Below, in pieces: positions 4,182-16,569 of a stretch of DNA of 20,000 nt. The translations under genes were made by a program, and so were the position numbers. Origin of the DNA: an uncultured virus (IMG/VR IMGVR_UViG_3300027869_000007) (Duplodnaviria > Heunggongvirae > Uroviricota > Caudoviricetes); IMG/VR virus record IMGVR_UViG_3300027869_000007. The stretch is one strand, 5' to 3'. Every line of letters starts with the position of its first letter. Within the stretch, counting starts at the first letter, position 1. The notes under the pieces were generated by a model. That model did not search any database, was not told where the DNA came from, and saw only the letters and a program-made list of their open reading frames with translations.

Positions 4182-5426
4182 ATGAGTATCGATACGTTAA
4201 GGGGGCAATCAGTCCCCATAAAACTGTGGACTCCTGTCGAGGAAGTCGAATCAAGTGCGCTTGATCAGCTAAAGAACGTCGCATCACTTCCATGGGTTTT
4301 TCATCACGTCGCTGCAATGAGCGATGTCCATTACGGAATAGGCGCAACAGTAGGCTCTGTAATTGCCATGAAAGGAGCGTTAGCTCCGGCAGCCGTTGGA
4401 GTTGATATTGGATGTGGTATGGCAGCTGTTCGTACTAATCTAACTGCCAGCGATCTTCCAGATAACCTAAAACCTATTAGACTCGAACTTGAGCGACGTA
4501 TTCCAGTAGGGCCAAATTCTCATGAAGAGTCTTTAGTCAAGCGTTCAAACCAGCTTTTCAAAGAGTTTGTCACTCTTCATCCTAAGGTCCAAGACCTAGA
4601 AGGGCGTGCGCGAAAGCAATGCGGCACGCTTGGTGGTGGAAACCATTTTATCGAGCTATGTCTAGACGATGGAAAGTGTTATGCGTGTTACGGCAGAGGG
4701 TGGGAACCTGATAATTTTCAATGTTCAGTGTGTCATGGTGAGAAAAAGCTAGAACCTCGGGTCTGGATGATGCTTCACTCAGGTTCTAGGAACATTGGTA
4801 AAGTTCTGGCCGAAATTCATATTGGTGTAGCACGAAAACTTATTCATAATACTATGTTGCCAGATCGTGATCTAGCTGTATTTCTATCTGGTACTCCAGA
4901 AATGGAAGCATATCGACGTGACTTATACTGGGCGCAGCAATATGCGTTTGAAAACAGAAAGATGATGCTTTCTATTTATGAAGACATCATGATCAAGTTC
5001 TTCCCTAAGGCGAAGTTTGACAGAGCCATTTCTTGTCACCACAACTACGTCTCAGAGGAAAATCACTTCGGCGAAGACGTCATTGTGACTCGCAAGGGAG
5101 CAATTAGTGCTAAGACAGGCGAGTTTGGGATAATTCCTGGGTCTATGGGGACAAAGTCTTATATTGTTCAAGGACTGGGGAACGACGAGTCTTTTAGATC
5201 TGCTTCACACGGAGCGGGGAGAAAGATGTCCCGAGGGAAGGCGAAGAATACTTTTTCGCTTGACGATTTTCTTGATCAGACGCAAGGTGTGGAGTGCAGG
5301 AAAAGCCAAGAATTCATAGACGAAATTCCAGGCGCGTACAAAGATATAGACAAGGTTATGGAATATCAAAGTGATTTGGTTAAGGTTAAAGCGGTGCTGA
5401 AGCAAGTTTTGTGTGTGAAGGGATAG
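4182..5426 (+). CDS. rtcB: RtcB family 3'-phosphate/5'-OH RNA ligase
   Basis: Motifs SDVHYGIGATVG, VGVDIGCGM, GTLGGGNHFIE, LHSGSR, CHHNY, RKGA, PGSMG, SASHGAGR and DEIPGAYK; RBS AGGAGG. Confidence 0.97.
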   Translation: MSIDTLRGQSVPIKLWTPVEEVESSALDQLKNVASLPWVFHHVAAMSDVHYGIGATVGSVIAMKGALAPAAVGVDIGCGMAAVRTNLTASDLPDNLKPIRLELERRIPVGPNSHEESLVKRSNQLFKEFVTLHPKVQDLEGRARKQCGTLGGGNHFIELCLDDGKCYACYGRGWEPDNFQCSVCHGEKKLEPRVWMMLHSGSRNIGKVLAEIHIGVARKLIHNTMLPDRDLAVFLSGTPEMEAYRRDLYWAQQYAFENRKMMLSIYEDIMIKFFPKAKFDRAISCHHNYVSEENHFGEDVIVTRKGAISAKTGEFGIIPGSMGTKSYIVQGLGNDESFRSASHGAGRKMSRGKAKNTFSLDDFLDQTQGVECRKSQEFIDEIPGAYKDIDKVMEYQSDLVKVKAVLKQVLCVKG

Positions 5427-11685: not shown

Positions 11686-12194
11686 CAAAAGCACAACTTC
11701 AGGTTCAAGAGTTTCACAGAGAAGTCGTAGGCAGTCCTACTTCGCCAGCAACTCCACAACTACGCGACTCGGAGTTGAGAGCAAGGCTCATTCTTGAAGA
11801 ATCTTTTGAGACAGTCGTAGCCCTGGTAGGAGCCAAAAAAGCGATTTCGCTTATTAAACACGAACTAGATTCGTTACCTAGAACGAGCAGCAAACCGAGT
11901 TTGATTGAGACGATAGACGGTCTGTGTGATTTGTGGTATGTGTTACTTGGAACCGCAGAGACTATAGGAATCGATCTTGAGCCGTTCATGGACGAGGTTC
12001 ACCGATCGAACATGCTAAAGAAAGGTGCCGGTGTAGACAAGTACGGAAAGCAGTTGAAACCAAAGGGATGGAAGCCGCCTGATATTGCCGGGGTGCTTTG
12101 TGCTTATCTTGCAGGTATCGGACCTCTGATGGGCCAATGGCCAGGAGAGGAGAGCGACGACGAAGTTTTCGACGCTCTTGAGAATGATGACTGA
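11682..12194 (+). CDS. MazG-like / PRA-PH (DR2231-like) nucleoside triphosphate pyrophosphohydrolase
   Basis: Motifs VQEFH, LRARLILEESFE, ETIDGLCDLWYVLLG, EVHRSNMLK and GKQLKPKGWKPPDI. Confidence 0.85.
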   Translation: MTKAQLQVQEFHREVVGSPTSPATPQLRDSELRARLILEESFETVVALVGAKKAISLIKHELDSLPRTSSKPSLIETIDGLCDLWYVLLGTAETIGIDLEPFMDEVHRSNMLKKGAGVDKYGKQLKPKGWKPPDIAGVLCAYLAGIGPLMGQWPGEESDDEVFDALENDD

Positions 12195-12714
12195 CACTCT
12201 AGCGGTAGACCCAGGAATCCGTGGATGCGGAGTAGCTCTATTTATAGAGGGCAAACTTTTAGAAGCAACTTATATAAAAAACCCTGTTAAAAAAGGCAAT
12301 GACCCCGAAGTAAGCGCAAATATGGCTTACGAAGTTTTTGCCTGGTATTGCACTCAGATAGAAAAGTTTCCGGTTATCGATATAGAGCTGTTGTTAGAAA
12401 AACAGCAGACATATGGAGGTAAGGCAGCCAGAGGCGATGCTAATGATTTATTTCCTTTAGCTGCAATAAACGGAGCGTTGGTTGCTTATATTAAGTCGCG
12501 TCGAACGATTTCTTATTTCCCTCGTGAGTGGAAGGGGAATGTAAACGCTGATATTATGATAGAGCGAATTAAAAGCAGGCTTACTACTGAAGAAATGTCG
12601 ACGGTGATGTTGACGTCCGCGAAAAGCCTGCATCACAATATTTGGGATGCTGTTGGTATAGGTCTATATCATTTATGTCGGTTAGAGAAGACGAGAATAA
12701 TCCATAGGGAGTAA
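12184..12714 (+). CDS. RuvC-like Holliday junction resolvase (RNase H fold)
   Basis: Motifs LAVDPGIRGCGVA, LLEKQ, PREWKG and HNIWDAVGIG. Confidence 0.8.
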   Translation: MMTDTLAVDPGIRGCGVALFIEGKLLEATYIKNPVKKGNDPEVSANMAYEVFAWYCTQIEKFPVIDIELLLEKQQTYGGKAARGDANDLFPLAAINGALVAYIKSRRTISYFPREWKGNVNADIMIERIKSRLTTEEMSTVMLTSAKSLHHNIWDAVGIGLYHLCRLEKTRIIHRE

Positions 12715-12929: not shown

Positions 12930-13046
12930 ATGGTGACGATCAGAACGAAAAAGGCACAGCCGAGACACTTGGACGCGTCGCGCGTCATATGGGGATATAG
13001 CGGCCACCCCTTGATCAAGTTTAATTGGGAGGCTGCCAGACCCTAG
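12930..13046 (+). CDS. Putative attenuator leader peptide (38 aa from ATG 12930, or 37 aa leaderless from GTG 12933)
   Basis: MVTIRTKKAQPRHLDASRVIWGYSGHPLIKFNWEAARP followed by tandem TAG TAG. The ORF starts at the predicted transcription start and ends inside the antiterminator arm. Confidence 0.6.
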   Translation: MVTIRTKKAQPRHLDASRVIWGYSGHPLIKFNWEAARP

Positions 13047-13106
13047 TAGAACCTAAATAGGGAAAACTAGAGGTCGGGCGAGACGAAAGTTCTCCCGGCC
13101 TTTTTT
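13000..13106 (+). terminator. Attenuator: alternative hairpins ending in an intrinsic terminator
   Basis: Terminator AGGTCGGG...GAAA...CCCGGCCT plus a T run (13071-13106). A competing helix pairs 13035-13047 with 13066-13079, and an upstream hairpin spans 13000-13036. Confidence 0.7.
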
Positions 13107-13112
13107 GTTTTC

Positions 13113-13182
13113 GGGTCGTCCTCTGGGAGGACGTTGGTTTCCAAAACCGACTAGCAGGGTTCGATTCCTTGACGACCCGCCA
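13113..13182 (+). tRNA. tRNA-Trp(CCA), short atypical D arm
   Basis: Acceptor GGGTCGT/ACGACCC, G73, encoded CCA, loop TT-CCA-AA, T loop TTCGATT. Confidence 0.8.
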
Positions 13183-13234
13183 TAACAGTGTGAAAAAATA
13201 GGTGTTTTACGAATTTTGTTGACTGATAAGTGAC

Positions 13235-13319
13235 GGGGTGATAGACCACTAGAGAGGTGGGGCTAGCTGTAAACTAGTCGTTCTTTTGAGCCAACCGAGT
13301 GCGACTCTCGGGCACCCCA
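13235..13319 (+). tRNA. tRNA-Tyr(GTA)
   Basis: GGGGTG/CACCCC acceptor, GCTAG-CT-GTA-AA-CTAGT, long variable arm, T loop TGCGACT. Confidence 0.8.
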
Positions 13320-13375
13320 CCTAGCTTGGCGAGTCTTAGTAGCGAAACGCGAACGGCCGTGTAGCCAAGAAGTAG

Positions 13376-13396
13376 TTGATTTTGAAAACAAAATAG
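13376..13396 (+). promoter_or_regulatory. boxA-like antitermination element
   Basis: TTGATTTTGAAAACAAAATAG resembles the rrn leader/spacer boxA (TCTTTGAAAAC). Confidence 0.5.
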
Positions 13397-13437
13397 TCGA
13401 CGACGAAAACAGACCTTGGTCTATATCAAGGTCTTAT

Positions 13438-13510
13438 GCGTGTGTGATGTTTAACGGTAGCATGACGGTCTTCCAAGCCGCCTGTAGGAGTTCGAATCTC
13501 CTCACACGCT
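13438..13510 (+). tRNA. tRNA-Gly(TCC)
   Basis: GCGTGTG/CACACGC acceptor, U73, loop CT-TCC-AA. Confidence 0.88.
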
Positions 13511-13514
13511 CTAT

Positions 13515-13585
13515 TCCGGTGTCGTCTAATGGTAAGGCGCAGGTCTTTGAATCCTGCTATAGTGGTTCGATCCCACTCGCCGGAA
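13515..13585 (+). tRNA. tRNA-Gln(TTG)
   Basis: TCCGGTG/CGCCGGA acceptor, loop CT-TTG-AA. Confidence 0.88.
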
Positions 13586-13594
13586 CTTTGTTTC

Positions 13595-13668
13595 TCGGGG
13601 ATCGTCTAACGGTAGGACGATAGATTCTGAATCTATCTATCAAGGTTCGAATCCTTGTCCCCGAACCA
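13595..13668 (+). tRNA. tRNA-Gln(CTG)
   Basis: TCGGGGA/TCCCCGA acceptor, ATAGA-TT-CTG-AA-TCTAT, encoded CCA. Confidence 0.92.
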
Positions 13669-13669
13669 C

Positions 13670-13744
13670 GCCTGTGTAGCACAATGGTAGTGCAGCGGTT
13701 TTGTAAACCGAAGGTTGGAGGTTCAAATCCTCTCGCAGGCTCCA
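13670..13744 (+). tRNA. tRNA-Thr(TGT)
   Basis: GCCTGTG/CGCAGGC acceptor, loop TT-TGT-AA, encoded CCA. Confidence 0.92.
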
Positions 13745-13755
13745 ACTCGCTTTAT

Positions 13756-13830
13756 TCCAGCGTATCATAATGGAAATGAACCCGACTGTTAATCGGGGAT
13801 ATGTACGTTCGAGTCGTGCCGCTGGAGCCA
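13756..13830 (+). tRNA. tRNA-Asn(GTT)
   Basis: TCCAGCG/CGCTGGA acceptor, G73, CCCGA-CT-GTT-AA-TCGGG, encoded CCA. Confidence 0.92.
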
Positions 13831-13831
13831 T

Positions 13832-13905
13832 GGCGCCATCGTACAATGGCAGTACCACGGTTTTTCACACCGTTTACGAGAGTTCGATTCTCTCTGGCGT
13901 CACCA
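13832..13905 (+). tRNA. tRNA-Glu(TTC)
   Basis: GGCGCCA/TGGCGTC acceptor, ACGGT-TT-TTC-AC-ACCGT, encoded CCA. Confidence 0.9.
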
Positions 13906-13908
13906 TTT

Positions 13909-13983
13909 CCGAGTGTAAGTCAGCAGCAGACGGCATGCTTTGGGAGCATGCAGCCGGGGGTGCAAGTCCCTCCACTCGGACCA
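13909..13983 (+). tRNA. tRNA-Pro(TGG)
   Basis: CCGAGTG/CACTCGG acceptor, CATGC-TT-TGG-GA-GCATG, A73, encoded CCA. Confidence 0.88.
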
Positions 13984-13992
13984 ATTTAAAAT

Positions 13993-14067
13993 CCGCCGTT
14001 AGTTCAATGGGAGAACGCTTTCCTGATTAGAGAGAGGTTGAAAGTTCGACTCTTTCACGGCGGACCA
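13993..14067 (+). tRNA. tRNA-Ile(GAT), unusual U37
   Basis: CCGCCGT/ACGGCGG acceptor, loop CT-GAT-TA, encoded CCA. Confidence 0.85.
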
Positions 14068-14082
14068 AGATAGGAGAACGTC

Positions 14083-14559
14083 ATGGCTAGGAGAAGCATC
14101 GCAAAGACCGCGATTGAGGGCGGTCGTCACGGTACCTGTCGTTCTGCAGAAGATGAAGCAGACCGTCGCGAGCGACGTGCCTGGAGGGACTACTGCCGCC
14201 GCGCCTCCTATGATTTTGATGTCGAGGACCCTGCCGGAGTGTCTTTTGCTGCACCGTACGAGACTGGTCGGCAATACCGCGAGTTTGATGACAAACTGAA
14301 GCCTGTCAAACGCTGGCTCGAATCTCAGGTAGGGAGACCTTGGGACCACATTAAAAGTGATGTGGTAGCGCTATTCGATAATCGTACTACGGCCGGGCGA
14401 CACATTATTGAACACGTGAAGTGTTTTGTGTCGCTTCCTACAGATCAGCATAGATACAACCCATATCCACCCTACCCAGGTAAGTTGTATGTTGATGAGC
14501 ACGGCGTGTTGCGACAGGCACCTTGGATGTCACGTAAGAAATGGTATGCATCTAGGTGA
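14083..14559 (+). CDS. Basic hypothetical protein embedded in the tRNA array
   Basis: AGGAG RBS; 158 aa with AIEGGR, DKLKPVKRWLESQVGRPW, RTTAGRHI and LYVDEHGVLR motifs. Confidence 0.8.
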   Translation: MARRSIAKTAIEGGRHGTCRSAEDEADRRERRAWRDYCRRASYDFDVEDPAGVSFAAPYETGRQYREFDDKLKPVKRWLESQVGRPWDHIKSDVVALFDNRTTAGRHIIEHVKCFVSLPTDQHRYNPYPPYPGKLYVDEHGVLRQAPWMSRKKWYASR

Positions 14560-14562
14560 TAT

Positions 14563-14639
14563 GGTGACGTTGGTGTAGCGGCACTGCACGTTTGCCTGTG
14601 GAGCAAAAGGTATGGGATCGACACCCATACGTCACCCCA
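14563..14639 (+). tRNA. tRNA-His(GTG)
   Basis: G-1:C73 pair, GTGACGT/ACGTCAC acceptor, TTTGC-CT-GTG-GA-GCAAA, encoded CCA. Confidence 0.9.
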
Positions 14640-14641
14640 AC

Positions 14642-14717
14642 GCACGCGAGGTTCCCTGGAGGGAACGCCGTCCTGTCACGACGGAGTGGACGGGTTCGAT
14701 TCCCGTCGCGTGCGCCA
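14642..14717 (+). tRNA. tRNA-Asp(GTC)
   Basis: GCACGCG/CGCGTGC acceptor, G73, CCGTC-CT-GTC-AC-GACGG, encoded CCA. Confidence 0.9.
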
Positions 14718-14718
14718 C

Positions 14719-14789
14719 GCCCCGGCAGCTCGAAGGTCGAGCGTCCCGCTGAAAATGGGAAGGTGAAGGTCCAATTCCTTCCTGGGGCA
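14719..14789 (+). tRNA. tRNA-Phe(GAA)
   Basis: GCCCCGG/CTGGGGC acceptor, loop CT-GAA-AA, T loop TCCAATT. Confidence 0.85.
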
Positions 14790-14794
14790 CAAAC

Positions 14795-14866
14795 GGGAAG
14801 CCCGCTGAAGCGGAAGACTGGTTTGCAACCAGACTGTGAAGGGTTTGATTCCCTTGCTTTCCACCA
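14795..14866 (+). tRNA. tRNA-Ala(TGC), atypical D arm
   Basis: GGGAAGC/GCTTTCC acceptor gives the G3:U70 Ala determinant; A73, loop TT-TGC-AA, encoded CCA. Confidence 0.8.
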
Positions 14867-14869
14867 TAT

Positions 14870-14942
14870 ACGCGTATAGCTCAATTGGAAGAGCACTCGG
14901 CTACGAACCGAGAGGCTGTGGGTCCGAGTCCCTCTACGCGTA
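14870..14942 (+). tRNA. tRNA-Arg(ACG)
   Basis: ACGCGTA/TACGCGT acceptor, CTCGG-CT-ACG-AA-CCGAG. Confidence 0.88.
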
Positions 14943-14947
14943 CTATT

Positions 14948-15023
14948 GTCCTCGTAGCTCAACTGGAAGAGCAAGCGCGTCCTAAGCGCGAGGTTGCGGG
15001 TTCAAATCCCGCCGAGGATACCA
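14948..15023 (+). tRNA. tRNA-Arg(CCT)
   Basis: GTCCTCG/CGAGGAT acceptor, loop GT-CCT-AA, encoded CCA. Confidence 0.88.
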
Positions 15024-15048
15024 TGCGACAGGCACTTGAGCCGAGTCC

Positions 15049-15122
15049 GGCGCCATAGTACAATGGTAGTACCACGGTTTTACACACCGTTTACGCGAGT
15101 TCGATTCTCGCTGGCGTCACCA
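15049..15122 (+). tRNA. tRNA-Val(TAC), near-identical paralogue of tRNA-Glu(TTC)
   Basis: ACGGT-TT-TAC-AC-ACCGT, A73, encoded CCA; differs from 13832-13905 at five positions. Confidence 0.85.
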
Positions 15123-15125
15123 TTT

Positions 15126-15147
15126 CCGAGTGTAAGCCATCGGACCA
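15126..15147 (+). pseudogene. Internally deleted copy of tRNA-Pro
   Basis: CCGAGTGTAAG (5' end of tRNA-Pro) is joined to TCGGACCA (its 3' end), with the same TTT spacer after the upstream tRNA. Confidence 0.75.
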
Positions 15148-15152
15148 ATCGG

Positions 15153-15212
15153 CATTGACAAACGACTTTGACAAACAACATTGACAAACAACAACGATAA
15201 ACAACAATGATA
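15153..15212. repeat. 13-bp degenerate tandem repeat (about 4.5 copies)
   Basis: CATTGACAAACGA / CTTTGACAAACAA / CATTGACAAACAA / CAACGATAAACAA / CAATGATA. Confidence 0.85.
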
Positions 15213-15373
15213 CTGACCTATAAATATCGTCTAAAAGGTAAGCGTACTATTAGGCAGCTAAAGCAATTTGCTTTCGCGTTGAGGACAAGCTACTAGCTCC
15301 TGACGTAGCCGTAGGCATAGACTTAGGTCTAAAGAGCCTTGCAACTCTCAGCAACGGCGAAAAAATCGACAAT
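15207..15373 (+). pseudogene. tnpB: IS200/IS605 TnpB relic with a large internal deletion
   Basis: N-terminus MILTYKYRLKGKRTIRQL, then in another frame the RuvC-I motif AVGIDLGLKSLATLSNGEKIDN. Confidence 0.8.
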
Positions 15374-15430
15374 ATAACAGCCTATAGACTGGCACTATAT
15401 TTGGTGTGATAGAATAGAAGGGAGGTTAAA

Positions 15431-15973
15431 GTGCAAACGCTAGTCTTAGACGTAGGATACCAACCACTTAGTCGAGTTCCTTGGGAAACTGCAATTGTAT
15501 GGGTTTTGGAACGCGTTGTAGAGGTTGTCGAATCTTATCCAGACAGATATATCAATACTGTCAGTTGGCGTGTAAATATGCCTTCTATAGTTCGATTTGT
15601 AAAGCCTATTGTAAAGAAGCGAGCAATCAAGTTTAGTCGACACAGCGTCTACGCACGTGATAAAGGACGATGTCAGTATTGCTCTAAGTTTGTTTCTCGT
15701 AATGAGTTTACATATGATCACGTAATCCCTAGATCACAAGGCGGCATTACATGTTTTGAAAACGTAGTTGTAGCTTGCGTTCCTTGTAATCAAAGAAAAG
15801 CCGGTAGGACACCTGGTCAAGCCGGAATGCGTCTTTTATCTATTCCTGTTAGACCTAAGAAACTTCCAGACGTGCCTTATAGAATTCGTTTTACAAATGA
15901 CATGCCTTCTTCGTGGAAAGAGTGGATCAGATCGGCAGTTTATTGGGATTCTGAATTGGACGACGGAGGGTGA
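15431..15973 (+). CDS. HNH endonuclease (McrA-like HNH family)
   Basis: Motifs LVLDVGYQPL, PSIVRF, FSRHSVYARDKGRCQYC, TYDHVIPRSQGG and NVVVACVPCNQRK; RBS GGAGG. Confidence 0.93.
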   Translation: MQTLVLDVGYQPLSRVPWETAIVWVLERVVEVVESYPDRYINTVSWRVNMPSIVRFVKPIVKKRAIKFSRHSVYARDKGRCQYCSKFVSRNEFTYDHVIPRSQGGITCFENVVVACVPCNQRKAGRTPGQAGMRLLSIPVRPKKLPDVPYRIRFTNDMPSSWKEWIRSAVYWDSELDDGG

Positions 15974-16050
15974 ACCGGGATGGTCTCGGCACTGTCTTGA
16001 AAACAGAGGGTGCTTAACGGCATGGCGTTCGATTCGTCCGCCCTCCTCCA
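15965..16050 (+). tRNA. tRNA-Ser(TGA), overlapping the HNH stop codon
   Basis: GGAGGGT/GCCCTCC acceptor, loop CT-TGA-AA, long variable arm, U73, encoded CCA. Confidence 0.88.
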
Positions 16051-16086
16051 CCTCCCCCGAGCCGCAGCGGTCTCTGCGGCGCTCCT

Positions 16087-16170
16087 GGAAGGTAAACCAC
16101 ACCGGGTGTGGGCTTGTTTCGAAAACAATGCGAGCTAAAGCTTGGAGTTCGACTCTTCTGCCTTCCTCCA
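16087..16170 (+). tRNA. tRNA-Ser(CGA)
   Basis: GGAAGGT/GCCTTCC acceptor, loop TT-CGA-AA, long variable arm, encoded CCA. Confidence 0.88.
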
Positions 16171-16172
16171 AT

Positions 16173-16259
16173 GGAAGATTAACCGGCAAGGTAGCCGGCG
16201 CCGATTGCTAATCGGTAGGAGCCAAAAGGCTTGGGGATCGTGCCCTCAGTCTTCCGCCA
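16173..16259 (+). tRNA. tRNA-Ser(GCT)
   Basis: GGAAGAT/GTCTTCC acceptor, GCCGA-TT-GCT-AA-TCGGT, long variable arm, G73, encoded CCA. Confidence 0.9.
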
Positions 16260-16278
16260 AATTTCGTCGTCGACTAAC

Positions 16279-16352
16279 GCTCTGCGGGCTGGACGCCCAG
16301 CGAAGCCTTCTAAGCTTTGCGTCGATAGGTTCGATTCCTATGCAGAGCACCA
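16279..16352 (+). tRNA. tRNA-Arg(TCT), atypical D arm
   Basis: GCTCTGC/GCAGAGC acceptor, GAAGC-CT-TCT-AA-GCTTT, encoded CCA. Confidence 0.85.
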
Positions 16353-16353
16353 T

Positions 16354-16426
16354 CGACCAATAGCTTAATGGTTTAAAGCACTTGCCTTATAAGCGAGAGA
16401 TGATGGTTCGATCCCATCTTGGTCGA
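16354..16426 (+). tRNA. tRNA-Ile(TAT)
   Basis: CGACCAA/TTGGTCG acceptor, A73, CTTGC-CT-TAT-AA-GCGAG. Confidence 0.87.
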
Positions 16427-16452
16427 CTACTTGATAGGGTAGAGGCACTATA

Positions 16453-16569
16453 ATGTTACTGACCTATAAATATCGTCTTAAAGGTAAGCGTACCATTAGG
16501 CAGCTAAACACACAAAAGCATCTAGATACTGATTTAGACTGGTTTGCAGAAATAGTGTTAGACACTTGA
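16453..16569 (+). pseudogene. tnpB: Second TnpB 5' relic
   Basis: MLLTYKYRLKGKRTIRQL; about 55 nt are nearly identical to 15207-15262. Confidence 0.7.

What the first reader, a model, noticed from the sequence alone, without database searches (positions are those of the whole stretch)
15049..15147. tRNA remodelling caught in the act: a tRNA-Glu(UUC) duplicate turned into tRNA-Val(UAC)
Seen: 15049-15147 duplicates the Glu-TTT-Pro block at 13832-13983. The Glu copy differs at only five sites: C9>A, one D-loop C>T, anticodon TTC>TAC, and a compensatory T-stem pair change (GAGAG/CTCTC to GCGAG/CTCGC). The co-duplicated tRNA-Pro has collapsed to its two ends. The new gene is the only Val-anticodon tRNA in the array. 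Established: A35, C36 and A73 are the main ValRS determinants, and all are present. Inference: selection kept an alloacceptor switch. The direction Glu to Val is inferred from the intact Glu-Pro block, and residual GluRS charging would cause Glu-for-Val mistranslation.
Basis: partly seen in the sequence, partly recalled or inferred. Interest (0 to 1): 0.7.

Follow-up and report, generated by a model that had tools for sequence, protein, structure and literature searches.

The report
Phage glutamate tRNA copy recoded to valine
In the tRNA gene cluster of an uncultured soil phage, a recent copy of the glutamate tRNA gene sits where related phages keep their valine tRNA gene and differs from its parent by a single anticodon base that now reads a valine codon, a clean viral example of a known way in which tRNA genes change identity.

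Summary
tRNA-Glu(UUC) at 13832-13905 and tRNA-Val(UAC) at 15049-15122 are identical at 69 of 74 bases. The TTT spacer and both ends of tRNA-Pro follow the Val gene, out to 15149. Independent metagenome assemblies reproduce both copies.

The window is a phage. Related metagenomic phages share a syntenic tRNA array with the same HNH gene embedded in it. In 15 of 17 relatives the slot after Arg(CCU) holds Met and then an ordinary Val gene. The window lacks these, and the Glu-Pro copy occupies the slot. The Val gene has a Glu-family acceptor stem and a four-base variable loop.

This is therefore alloacceptor tRNA remolding: duplication, anticodon change and loss of the old gene. At the gene level I put it near 0.9.

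Two corrections apply. Three of the four body differences probably arose in the Glu copy, not the Val copy. Formal tree tests were not significant.

Valine charging is untested. A35, C36 and A73 are present, but G20, G45 and the C2-G71 pair typical of the clade's Val genes are not.

Remolding is well known in mitochondria, eukaryotes and bacteria. Seven literature searches found no phage case. This scan earlier noted a similar-looking Glu duplicate on other DNA and judged it a relic.

The parts
13832..13905 (+). Parental tRNA-Glu(UUC) gene in the ancestral Glu slot (Asn-Glu-Pro-Ile). It encodes its own CCA and has a 4-base variable loop.
   Evidence: ARAGORN. Rfam tRNA model 60.1 bits. Best match in the window to the clade Glu model, 69.5 bits. 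Cloverleaf minimum-energy fold. Synteny.
13906..13908 (+). TTT spacer between Glu and Pro.
   Evidence: Sequence.
13909..13983 (+). Intact tRNA-Pro(UGG) gene, the source of the remnant at 15126-15149.
   Evidence: ARAGORN. Rfam 51.2 bits.
14948..15023 (+). tRNA-Arg(CCU), the left landmark of the slot. In relatives it is followed by one to three Met(CAU) genes and then a Val gene.
15024..15048 (+). 25-base leader between Arg(CCU) and the Val gene. It begins with TGCG, as do the Met(CAU) genes that follow Arg(CCU) in relatives. Bases 15032-15044 match the 3' end of the Asn gene that precedes Glu at 9 of 13 positions. Either reading is weak.
   Evidence: The counts are my own reading of the sequence.
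15049..15122 (+). Remolded gene with a Glu-type body and anticodon UAC (Val). It has A73 and encodes CCA.
   Evidence: ARAGORN. Rfam 67.1 bits. Second-best match to the Glu model, 64.5 bits, against 60.1 bits on the Val model. Cloverleaf fold. Present in independent assemblies.
15082..15082 (+). The base that changes the identity: A at anticodon position 35, where the Glu copy has T at 13865.
15123..15136 (+). Co-duplicated TTT spacer and the first 11 bases of tRNA-Pro, identical to 13906-13919.
15137..15149 (+). Remnant of the 3' end of tRNA-Pro and its trailer. It matches 13972-13985 with one base missing. About 50 internal bases of Pro are deleted.
15150..15430 (+). Non-tRNA spacer with three TTGACAAAC repeats and a promoter-like site. 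It occupies the place where relatives have Leu genes about 30-45 bases before the HNH start codon.
15431..15973 (+). HNH endonuclease gene, the right landmark of the slot. It is conserved inside the tRNA array of relatives at 47-70% identity.
   Evidence: PHROGs..

Best explanation
This is alloacceptor tRNA remolding in a phage tRNA array. The ancestor of this phage carried a large ordered tRNA array of about 40 genes. In it Asn-Glu-Pro-Ile lay upstream, and Arg(CCU)-Met-Val(UAC or CAC)-Leu-HNH lay downstream. In the window's lineage a copy of the Glu-Pro block came to lie directly after Arg(CCU), and the Met, Val and Leu genes of that slot were lost. The order of these events is not known. 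A tandem duplication followed by deletions, or repair from an ectopic template near the HNH gene, would both fit. The Pro copy then lost its interior. The Glu copy stayed intact, and one substitution at the middle anticodon base (U35 to A35) turned UUC into UAC. The Glu lineage involved already had A73. In bacteria ValRS reads mainly A35, C36 and A73, and GluRS needs U35. The most likely outcome is therefore that the transcript is processed like its neighbours, charged with valine and used to read GUA, which is 32% of this AT-rich phage's valine codons. On that view it replaces the lost Val(UAC). What is shown: the duplication, the direction of block transfer, the Glu-type body, the single anticodon change, and the absence of an ordinary Val gene in the window. 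What is inferred: expression, valylation, selective retention and the DNA-level mechanism.
For: The pair matches at 69 of 74 bases, and the spacer and both Pro ends are co-duplicated. It is the most alike of 7,167 different-isotype pairs within loci, at 0.93 against a next-best 0.80. Direction: a full Pro gene cannot be rebuilt from a remnant, and Glu-Pro adjacency is ancestral (12 of 13 relatives' loci), so sequence moved from 13832-13985 to 15049-15149. Slot: 15 of 17 distinct relatives with Arg(CCU) have one to three Met genes and then Val (8 tac, 7 cac). The closest relative by HNH identity, L068 at 70%, has Val(tac) of the ordinary type. Glu-type body: the acceptor stem and discriminator are identical to the Glu(ctc) of L081. 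A 4-base variable loop occurs in 12 of 17 Glu genes but only 1 of 32 Val genes in relatives. On a Glu-versus-Val profile log-odds score without the anticodon, the Val gene scores +15.4 and its parent +17.4, while all 32 Val genes lie between -74.5 and -17.0. On the Glu covariance model it scores 64.5 bits, second only to the parent at 69.5, with the next tRNA at 52.1. On the Val model it scores 60.1. The maximum-likelihood tree without anticodon columns puts the pair together at 99/99, inside a set of 9 Glu genes plus the pair at 98/98. Integrity: perfect cloverleaf, and the Val end branch is 0 apart from the anticodon, while the adjacent Pro copy was destroyed. Identity rules: a review names A35 and A73, with C36 in the transplant set, as valine determinants, and names U35 among the strong glutamate determinants (passages of PMC9976931). 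A35, C36 and A73 are the only isotype-specific invariant columns of the clade's 32 Val genes. Demand: GTA is 108 of 335 Val codons in 17 window ORFs, and the window's GC is 46.7%. The window is the most AT-rich member of the clade, and Val(tac) occupies the slot in its lower-GC members. Assembly: both copies stand in contigs of four runs from four studies with no variant at the ten sites.
Against: No expression or charging data exist, and no RNA run holding the stretch was listed. The Val copy lacks the minor ValRS elements G20 and G45, having U at both. It has a G-U pair at 2:71 where at least 90% of the clade's Val genes have C2-G71, and a 4-base variable loop where 31 of 32 have 5. The review reports that G-U pairs at acceptor positions 3 or 4 impair E. 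coli tRNA-Val. The effect at position 2 is unknown, and so is the host. The body keeps GluRS determinants: U34, C36, A37, U11-A24, A46 and no residue 47 (against the sequence). The compensatory T-stem change probably lies in the Glu copy, so it says nothing about constraint on the Val copy. The co-duplicated neutral flank shows 0 substitutions in 24 aligned bases, so the duplication may be too young for decay to show. Approximately unbiased (AU) tests did not reject alternative topologies: p=0.2 for the Val copy held with the Val genes, and p=0.505 and 0.187 for two other constraints. With 70 columns and an unrooted test, power is low. Both window genes score below the lowest true Glu on the profile (17.4 and 15.4 against 25.2). 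Their D arm and anticodon stem are uninformative. Leu genes lost from the same slot were not replaced, although CTA and TTA are common codons. Only the 20-kb window was searched for other Val genes.
Confidence: 0.6

Rival explanations
1. Neutral relic. The Glu-Pro copy is a by-product of array rearrangement. The Glu copy is a young pseudogene or an uncharged transcript whose first substitution happened to hit the anticodon, and it will decay as the Pro copy did.
For: The duplication looks young, with 0 substitutions in 24 aligned flank bases, so intactness alone proves little. No change that adapts the body to ValRS can be assigned to the Val copy. The minor ValRS elements and the clade-typical C2-G71 pair are missing. 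Decayed tRNA gene remnants are common in these arrays, for example a collapsed Met gene after Arg(CCU) in L083. I did not test that note.
Against: If the copy carries one random substitution, only 1 of the 222 possible single-base changes gives UAC, and only 9 of 222 touch the anticodon (my arithmetic on 74 bases). UAC is exactly the anticodon held at this slot by 8 of 17 relatives, and it reads the phage's frequent GUA codon. In the same interval the neighbouring Pro copy lost about 50 bases and the constrained parental Glu gene took three or four substitutions, yet the Val copy took none outside the anticodon.
Confidence: 0.25
2. Dual or retained glutamate identity. The UAC tRNA is still charged, wholly or partly, by GluRS and inserts glutamate at GUA codons. 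That would be costly mistranslation or tolerated ambiguity.
For: The body keeps U34, C36, A37, U11-A24, A46 and the missing residue 47, which the review lists as GluRS determinants. It is still the second-best match to the clade's Glu model.
Against: The same review lists U35 among the strong GluRS determinants. The copy has A35, which together with A73 is a ValRS determinant. From memory, and not checked here, anticodon substitutions in E. coli tRNA-Glu cost two to three orders of magnitude in kcat/Km. Systematic Glu-for-Val substitution at a third of the phage's own valine codons should be strongly deleterious.
Confidence: 0.1
3. Opposite direction or patchy conversion. The gene at 15049 descends from the ancestral Val gene of that slot. 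Either it overwrote the Glu slot (Val to Glu), or the old Val gene was converted by the Glu gene except at base 35.
For: Each copy sits in the slot that matches its own anticodon. The AU test does not reject the Val copy being on the Val side of a split (p=0.2). The D arm and anticodon stem are not diagnostic.
Against: The spacer and both ends of Pro lie next to the Val copy, so sequence did move from the Glu-Pro locus to the Val locus. The acceptor stem and 4-base variable loop are Glu-family characters that are absent or rare in the 32 Val genes. Conversion sparing one base is far less parsimonious than one point mutation. The loop base 38 is C as in the Glu copy, not the A of the tac-type Val genes of L068, L075 and L081. 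Even under patchy conversion the product is a Glu-bodied Val-anticodon gene.
Confidence: 0.04
4. Assembly artefact. The two copies are one gene, or the anticodon difference is a consensus error.
For: Repeats in tRNA arrays can confuse assemblers. In X5 the contigs break inside the Val gene, at 15092/15093.
Against: Contigs from four runs in four studies reproduce both loci with their different flanks and no variant at the ten sites. Single contigs in X1 and X2 span both loci.
Confidence: 0.01

Closest known systems
Alloacceptor tRNA remolding in metazoan mitochondrial genomes (PMC4783518; abstract seen in the listings)
   Same: [quoted passage not shown] The result is a tRNA closer to another alloacceptor family than to same-anticodon tRNAs of related species. 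All four elements are seen here at the sequence level.
   Different: The setting is the accessory tRNA array of a double-stranded DNA phage. Its tRNAs supplement a host set and are charged by host synthetases with bacterial identity rules. They are not a minimal organellar set with relaxed recognition. Here the parent, the product and a scar of the co-duplicated neighbour are all still visible.
tRNA anticodon shifts, also called tRNA gene recruitment, in nuclear and enterobacterial genomes (PMC3923123, passages), and phylogenetic evidence of anticodon switching in bacteria (PMC7661048, passages)
   Same: An orthologous or paralogous tRNA gene changes identity by a single anticodon substitution. 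That study found middle-base (position 35) changes to be the commonest kind among alloacceptor shifts, and proposed that redundancy of tRNA genes makes shifts easier.
   Different: Those authors found few shifts in 61 Enterobacteriaceae. Their cases were detected by synteny between species. Here the evidence is a near-identical paralogue inside one array. No phage case was reported in what I read.
Anticodon-driven identity of the Val, Ile and Met tRNAs (review PMC9976931, passages). The experimental anticodon swaps by Schulman and Pelka and the anticodon-mutation rescue by Saks, Sampson and Abelson are recalled. Only the latter's citation was seen, in the reference list.
   Same: Valine identity rests on A35 and A73, with C36 in the transplant set. 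This explains why one base change in an A73 tRNA can plausibly create a ValRS substrate.
   Different: Those are engineered E. coli tRNAs assayed in vitro or in vivo. Here the change is natural, nothing has been assayed, and the body carries GluRS determinants and lacks G20 and G45.
Turnover of tRNA genes in viral tRNA clusters, with HNH endonucleases implicated (chlorovirus clusters, PMC7589089, passages, which cites work on Cluster M mycobacteriophages)
   Same: These are ordered, one-strand tRNA clusters with duplications and losses within a clade. An HNH gene lies 308 bases from the rearranged slot here.
   Different: The passages I read describe duplications of the same isoacceptor and losses, not a change of amino-acid identity. 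The word 'remolding' occurs there only in a cited title.

Membership tests
Alloacceptor tRNA remolding (definition in the abstract of PMC4783518) | Duplication of a tRNA gene | tested here: met
   69 of 74 identical bases, with co-duplicated spacer and Pro ends. The pair is an outlier among 7,167 pairs.
Alloacceptor tRNA remolding (definition in the abstract of PMC4783518) | An anticodon mutation that moves the gene to another amino acid's codons | tested here: met
   TTC at 13864-13866 against TAC at 15081-15083. All 17 Glu genes of relatives have T at position 35.
Alloacceptor tRNA remolding (definition in the abstract of PMC4783518) | Loss of the ancestral gene of the new identity | tested here: met
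   15 of 17 relatives have an ordinary Val gene after Arg(CCU)-Met. The window has none at that slot or anywhere in its 20 kb. The genome outside the window was not seen.
Alloacceptor tRNA remolding (definition in the abstract of PMC4783518) | The product is closer to another alloacceptor family than to same-anticodon tRNAs of related species | tested here: met
   93% identical to the window's Glu gene against at most 70% to any relative's Val gene. Glu-side profile score of +15.4 against -17.0 or lower for the Val genes. Glu model 64.5 bits against Val model 60.1 bits. Tree support 99/99 and 98/98. AU tests were not significant.
Alloacceptor tRNA remolding (definition in the abstract of PMC4783518) | The product is a functional tRNA of the new identity | not testable with these tools
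   No RNA run was listed and no charging data exist. There is only a cloverleaf fold and a comparison of identity elements.
Bacterial tRNA-Val as a ValRS substrate (determinants as listed in PMC9976931) | A35, C36 and discriminator A73 | tested here: met
   Read from the sequence. These are also the isotype-specific invariant columns of the clade's 32 Val genes.
Bacterial tRNA-Val as a ValRS substrate (determinants as listed in PMC9976931) | Minor elements G20 and G45 | tested here: not met
   Both are U in the gene: the D-loop reads GG-T-A and the variable loop reads TTAC.
Bacterial tRNA-Val as a ValRS substrate (determinants as listed in PMC9976931) | A regular acceptor helix, since G-U at pair 3 or 4 impairs E. 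coli tRNA-Val. In this phage clade, C2-G71 in at least 90% of Val genes. | tested here: inconclusive
   Pairs 3:70 and 4:69 are Watson-Crick, but 2:71 is G-U and not the clade's C-G. The effect on the unknown host's ValRS is not known.
Bacterial tRNA-Glu as a GluRS substrate (determinants as listed in PMC9976931) | [quoted passage not shown] | tested here: not met
   The 15049 copy has A35. U34, C36 and A37 are kept. The 13832 copy meets all four.
Bacterial tRNA-Glu as a GluRS substrate (determinants as listed in PMC9976931) | U11-A24, the 13-22:46 triple, and absence of residue 47 | tested here: met
   Both copies have U11-A24, A46 and a 4-base variable loop. Pair 13-22 is C-G, not the U-G of E. 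coli.

The most novel reading that the evidence does not exclude
Phage tRNA arrays evolve by the same duplication, remolding and loss cycle as mitochondrial genomes, and here the cycle was adaptive. After a rearrangement removed the Met-Val-Leu block, the one lost identity that a single anticodon change can recreate (Val, on an A73 body) was recreated from a Glu copy. The parental Glu gene then changed at three or four body sites, including a change to the Glu-typical C9, to sharpen discrimination between two near-identical tRNAs of different identity. If so, this is a natural in vivo experiment showing that A35 on a Glu body is enough to switch a tRNA between a class Ib and a class Ia synthetase in a bacterial host.
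Probability: 0.2. Interest if true: 0.7.

Novelty: new member of a known kind. Interest (0 to 1): 0.5.

Why it matters
Phage tRNA arrays are usually discussed in terms of gene gain from hosts, codon matching and evasion of anticodon nucleases. This locus shows, at the sequence level, a further route by which a viral tRNA set can change: recruitment of a paralogue to a new amino-acid identity by one base. All three steps of remolding can still be read here, namely the parent, the product with the scar of its co-duplicated neighbour, and the emptied ancestral slot. It also offers a ready-made substrate pair differing at five bases for testing how far the anticodon alone sets Val against Glu identity. 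For annotation, it is a reminder that anticodon-based naming of phage tRNAs can hide their ancestry and possible ambiguity in charging.

Tried and rejected
Megablast of 13000-16500 against INPHARED phages gave no match. A distant blastn of 13800-15200 found only generic Arg, Ile and Thr tRNA similarities and none to the Glu or Val genes.

A tblastn with the DNA polymerase found one record at 28.9% identity. Exact-pattern scans for the Glu/Val gene or the Val-Pro junction gave 0 matches in IMG/VR and 0 in genome contigs.

The search for related loci with the polymerase kept no locus. With the ORF at 12178-12714 it gave one weak locus without tRNAs. With the ORF at 14083-14559 it found the 210-kb phage G001, but that gene lies far from the array there. 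No whole genome is held for the window.

RNA evidence: no RNA holder was listed.

Tree-topology tests: the AU test was not significant for three constraints. Because the test is unrooted, the whole Val clade can be re-attached next to the window pair, so these tests have little bearing on the question. I report them as not decisive.

I considered that the window's Asp(GUC) might be a second remolded gene, because it is the top hit of the Val model at 68.9 bits. I rejected this: it resembles the Asp genes of L033 and L068 and sits in the Asp slot.

I considered a chimeric origin by recombination inside the anticodon loop with the old Val gene. I rejected this because both halves of the gene match the Glu copy.

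The possible remnant of the Asn 3' end upstream of the Val gene (9 of 13 bases) is too weak to use.

Earlier notes of this scan gave nothing on this DNA. One loosely similar case on other DNA came up.
Full report
**What is in the sequence**

ARAGORN finds 19 tRNA genes on the + strand between 13113 and 16427. They include Glu(ttc) at 13832-13905, Pro(tgg) at 13909-13983 and Val(tac) at 15049-15122. Rfam's tRNA model accepts the Val gene at 67.1 bits and the Glu gene at 60.1 bits.

The Glu and Val genes are identical at 69 of 74 bases. The differences are position 9 (C in Glu, A in Val), D-loop position 20 (C, T), the middle anticodon base (T, A) and the two sides of T-stem pair 50:64 (A-U, C-G).

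After the Val gene come the same TTT spacer and the first 11 bases of Pro. These are followed by 13 bases that match the 3' end of Pro and its trailer, with one base missing. About 50 internal bases of Pro are absent. Both genes fold into a perfect cloverleaf as their minimum-energy structure.

**Is it real and more than chance?**

I collected 688 tRNA genes from the window and 84 related loci. One record with a negative coordinate was skipped. Among the 7,167 within-locus pairs of different isotype, this pair is the most alike at 0.93, and the next is 0.80. It also exceeds every same-isotype pair, the highest of which is 0.86.

Logan contigs of four sequencing runs from four studies (soil and mine metagenomes) carry the region. 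In X1 and X2 one contig each spans 13686-16500 with no difference. In X4 and X5 separate contigs cover the two genes with 0-2 differences. No variant is reported at any of the ten sites that distinguish the copies.

X1 and X2 may be the sample of origin. Contigs cannot exclude rare variants.

**Context**

The window is phage DNA. It holds an RtcB-type tRNA ligase (4182-5426), a Dda-like helicase, a DNA polymerase, a MazG-like pyrophosphatase and an HNH endonuclease (15431-15973) inside the tRNA array. Nothing close is in INPHARED or IMG/VR.

The HNH gene proved a good anchor. Homologues at 47-70% identity lie inside tRNA arrays of many uncultured phages. One is a complete 210-kb genome, G001, with 43 ARAGORN tRNA calls in 10 kb.

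These arrays are collinear with the window's. A typical order is Trp ... Tyr ... Gly(tcc), Gln, Thr(tgt), Asn, (Cys), Glu, (Glu), Pro ... Ile(gat), His, Asp, Phe ... Arg(acg), (Arg ccg), Arg(cct), Met, (Met), Val, Leu x2-5, HNH, Ser ... Ser(gct), Arg(tct), (Ile tat). The window holds a reduced version of this order.

**The two slots**

In 12 of 13 relatives' loci where a gene follows the last Glu, that gene is Pro. The block at 13832-13983 is therefore in its ancestral place.

Of 17 distinct relatives' loci that contain Arg(cct), 15 continue with one to three Met(cat) genes and then a Val gene (8 tac, 7 cac). One continues with Leu, and one ends at the contig end. Four further rows were dropped as duplicates of the same sequence.

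In the window Arg(cct) is followed after 25 bases by the Glu-like Val(tac) gene and the Pro remnant. Then comes a 281-base stretch without tRNA genes, and then HNH. The Met, ordinary Val and Leu genes are absent. In most of the relatives shown a Leu gene ends about 30-45 bases before the HNH start codon.

The copy therefore sits exactly where an ordinary Val gene used to be, and it carries the anticodon found there in 8 of the 17 relatives.

**Which way did the change go?**

Three kinds of evidence agree that a Glu gene became a Val-anticodon gene.

- **The Pro scar.** The spacer and both ends of Pro lie beside the Val gene, while the intact Pro lies beside the Glu gene in the ancestral Glu-Pro arrangement. 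Sequence therefore moved from 13832-13985 to 15049-15149.
- **Discrete characters of the body.**
  - The acceptor stem (G1-C72, G2-U71, C3-G70, G4-C69, C5-G68, C6-G67, A7-U66) and A73 are identical to those of the Glu(ctc) gene of L081. They follow the pattern of one of the two Glu lineages of the clade.
  - At least 90% of the 32 Val genes have C2-G71.
  - A 4-base variable loop occurs in 12 of 17 Glu genes and only 1 of 32 Val genes.
- **Quantitative scores.**
  - A position-specific log-odds score of Glu family against Val family, with the anticodon and 3' tail left out, gives +17.4 for the Glu copy and +15.4 for the Val copy. Leave-one-out scores are 25.2 to 63.1 for the 17 Glu genes and -74.5 to -17.0 for the 32 Val genes. 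The signal lies in both acceptor strands and the variable loop. The D arm and anticodon stem are uninformative.
  - A covariance model of the relatives' Glu genes scores the two window genes first and second, at 69.5 and 64.5 bits, with the next tRNA at 52.1.
  - A model of the relatives' Val genes scores the Val copy 60.1 and the Glu copy 49.7. It ranks the window's Asp and Ile(gat) genes higher, at 68.9 and 61.5, so it discriminates poorly.
  - A maximum-likelihood tree of 51 Glu and Val genes (70 columns, anticodon removed) joins the window pair at 99/99. It places the pair in a set with 9 Glu genes at 98/98, with L081 Glu(ctc) as sister at 88/76. All 32 Val genes lie on the other side at 99/94.

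**Results that weaken the tree argument**

AU tests did not reject the tree with the Val copy held with the Val genes (log-likelihood 10.86 lower, p=0.2). They did not reject the tree with both window genes held with the Val genes (0.07 lower, p=0.505). They did not reject the tree with the nine Glu relatives held apart from the pair (7.20 lower, p=0.187).

The test is unrooted, so the whole Val clade can be re-attached beside the pair at little cost. With only 70 columns the power is also low. I therefore rest the direction on the Pro scar, the synteny and the discrete characters, not on the tree.

**Polarity of the four body differences**

The tree assigns all four to the Glu copy, with end branch 0.053 against 0 for the Val copy.

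By inspection of the alignment, the nearest Glu relatives (L081, L033) have C50-G64, and most of that lineage have T at position 20, as the Val copy does. Position 9 is equivocal: 15 of 17 Glu genes have C, L081 has A, and 24 of 32 Val genes have A.

The Val copy thus looks like the unaltered ancestral body with one anticodon change. The compensatory T-stem change belongs to the parental Glu gene and is no evidence of constraint on the Val copy.

**Would it work as a valine tRNA?**

According to the identity review (passages of PMC9976931), valine identity shares A73 and A35 with Ile and Met. The set A35, C36, A73, G20 and G45 was used to transplant valine identity into E. coli tRNA-Phe. G20 and G45 are minor elements. 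G-U pairs at acceptor positions 3 or 4 impair E. coli tRNA-Val.

The Val copy has A35, C36 and A73. These are also the only isotype-specific invariant columns among the clade's 32 Val genes. It lacks G20 and G45 and has G-U at 2:71. It has lost U35 but keeps every other glutamate element listed, with C13-G22 in place of U13-G22.

The Glu lineage from which it came already had A73, so one substitution sufficed to assemble the three major valine elements. Charging by ValRS is plausible, some residual recognition by GluRS cannot be excluded, and neither has been tested. The host is unknown.

**Is there a reason to keep it?**

In 17 ORFs of the window (4,813 codons) GTA is 108 of 335 valine codons, and overall GC is 46.7%. 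The window is the most AT-rich member of the clade: 0.46 outside tRNA genes against 0.54-0.68 in the relatives. Among relatives, Val(tac) occupies the slot at GC 0.54-0.61 and Val(cac) at 0.57-0.68.

The window's array is enriched in U34 anticodons that read A-ending codons. This fits a demand for tRNA-Val(UAC).

Against a simple demand argument, the Leu genes lost from the same slot were not replaced, although CTA and TTA are common. It is established knowledge, not tested here, that leucine identity does not reside in the anticodon, so it could not be recreated by an anticodon change.

If the Val copy has taken a single random substitution, 1 of the 222 possible changes yields UAC. In the same interval the adjacent Pro copy was gutted and the parental Glu gene changed at three or four sites. 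These points favour retention by selection. They are not proof, because the co-duplicated flank shows no substitution in 24 bases and the event may simply be young.

**How it arose at the DNA level (inference only)**

One possibility is a tandem duplication by unequal exchange between similar T-arm sequences of two tRNA genes, followed by deletions. This is the classical duplication and random loss route.

Another is repair of a break near the resident HNH endonuclease gene from an ectopic template. The chlorovirus paper notes that HNH endonucleases have been implicated in tRNA gene turnover in mycobacteriophages (passages of PMC7589089).

The 25 bases before the Val gene start with TGCG, as the Met genes do that follow Arg(cct) in relatives. 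They also contain a 9-of-13 match to the 3' end of Asn. Both hints are too weak to choose between routes.

**Comparison with what is known**

The locus meets the published definition of alloacceptor tRNA remolding. That definition comprises duplication, anticodon mutation and loss of the ancestral gene, with a product closer to another alloacceptor family (abstract of PMC4783518).

Anticodon shifts are documented in eukaryotic nuclear genomes and, rarely, in Enterobacteriaceae. Position-35 changes are the commonest alloacceptor kind (passages of PMC3923123). Phylogenetic evidence for anticodon switching in bacteria is cited in PMC7661048 (passages). Arrays of tRNA genes were predicted to favour such shifts (passage of PMC4758250).

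Seven full-text searches returned no description of an alloacceptor shift in a phage tRNA array. The library lacks most subscription journals, so this is not proof that no such description exists.

I class the locus as a new member of a known kind. It is unusually legible, and it sits in a setting where the phenomenon has apparently not been described.

**Verdict**

- Observation: confirmed.
- Gene-level remolding from Glu to a Val anticodon: about 0.9.
- The full explanation, including use as a valine tRNA: 0.6.
- Neutral relic: 0.25.
- Dual or retained glutamate charging: 0.1.
- Interest: 0.5.

Noticed in passing
window 14795-14864 (+): A tRNA-like gene with anticodon GCA (Cys) lies between Phe and Arg(acg). 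ARAGORN and Rfam do not call it. It folds as a cloverleaf with a 4-base D-loop and no bases between the acceptor and D stems (z = -2.77), and it ends in CCA. It matches my clade models at 21.8 and 31.1 bits. In relatives Cys(gca) sits between Asn and Glu, so it is also out of place here.
   Followed up: partly
window 15965-16048 and 16087-16168 (+): Two long-arm tRNA genes missed by ARAGORN lie between HNH and Ser(gct), where relatives have Ser(tga) and Ser(cga). I read their anticodon loops as UGA and CGA (Ser). The first overlaps the last bases of the HNH ORF and scores 45.7 bits on Rfam's tRNA-Sec model, just under its cut-off of 47.
   Followed up: partly
window 15154-15274 (+): Three copies of TTGACAAAC sit in about 40 bases, with a promoter-like site (TTGACA, 16-base spacer, AACAAT). 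Next comes a 69-base stretch (15206-15274) that recurs with 9 differences about 40 kb away on the same long contigs of runs X1 and X2. This is probably a repeated phage promoter or leader element inserted where relatives have Leu genes.
   Followed up: no
window 4182-5426 (+): An RtcB-type tRNA ligase gene (PHROG 1075, E = 2e-131) lies 8 kb upstream of the tRNA array. This suggests the phage repairs tRNAs cut by host anticodon nucleases.
   Followed up: no
L033, L040, L043, L068, L074, L081 and other loci: A large clade of uncultured soil and sediment phages shares one ordered array of up to about 40 tRNA genes, with the same HNH endonuclease gene always between the Leu and Ser groups. Array order is conserved while the tRNA sequences are only about 70% alike, and many members show stepwise reduction of the array.
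   Followed up: partly
L068:1234-1385 against L040:3689-3842: The two Glu lineages of the clade, which have distinct acceptor stems, carry swapped anticodons in different phages. The GGC...GTC type is ctc in L033, L040, L074 and L081 but ttc in L068, and the reverse holds for the GTC...GAC type. These are isoacceptor anticodon shifts at position 34.
   Followed up: no
L083 bases just after its Arg(cct) gene; L039:5668-5714: Collapsed remnants of tRNA genes, with 5' end, T arm and 3' end retained, lie after Arg(cct) in other members of the clade. They resemble the Pro remnant in the window. Internal deletion seems a common way for these array genes to die.
   Followed up: no
window 14642-14715 (+): The window's tRNA-Asp(GUC) is the best match in the window to the model built from the relatives' Val genes (68.9 bits). 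It shares an acceptor-stem pattern and an unusual 8-10 region with the Val(cac) type. It also resembles the Asp genes of L033 and L068 and sits in the Asp slot, so I take this as an old family likeness and not a second remolding.
   Followed up: partly
L001:3204-3564: The 210-kb relative G001 encodes a tmRNA with tag peptide ANDNVRVQSNLSAPLQAAA, far from its tRNA array.
   Followed up: no
window 13113-13182 (+): tRNA-Trp(CCA) has a much reduced D arm, with a 4-bp stem and a 3-base loop by my reading. It scores only 28.9 bits on Rfam's tRNA model, just under the cut-off of 29.
   Followed up: no
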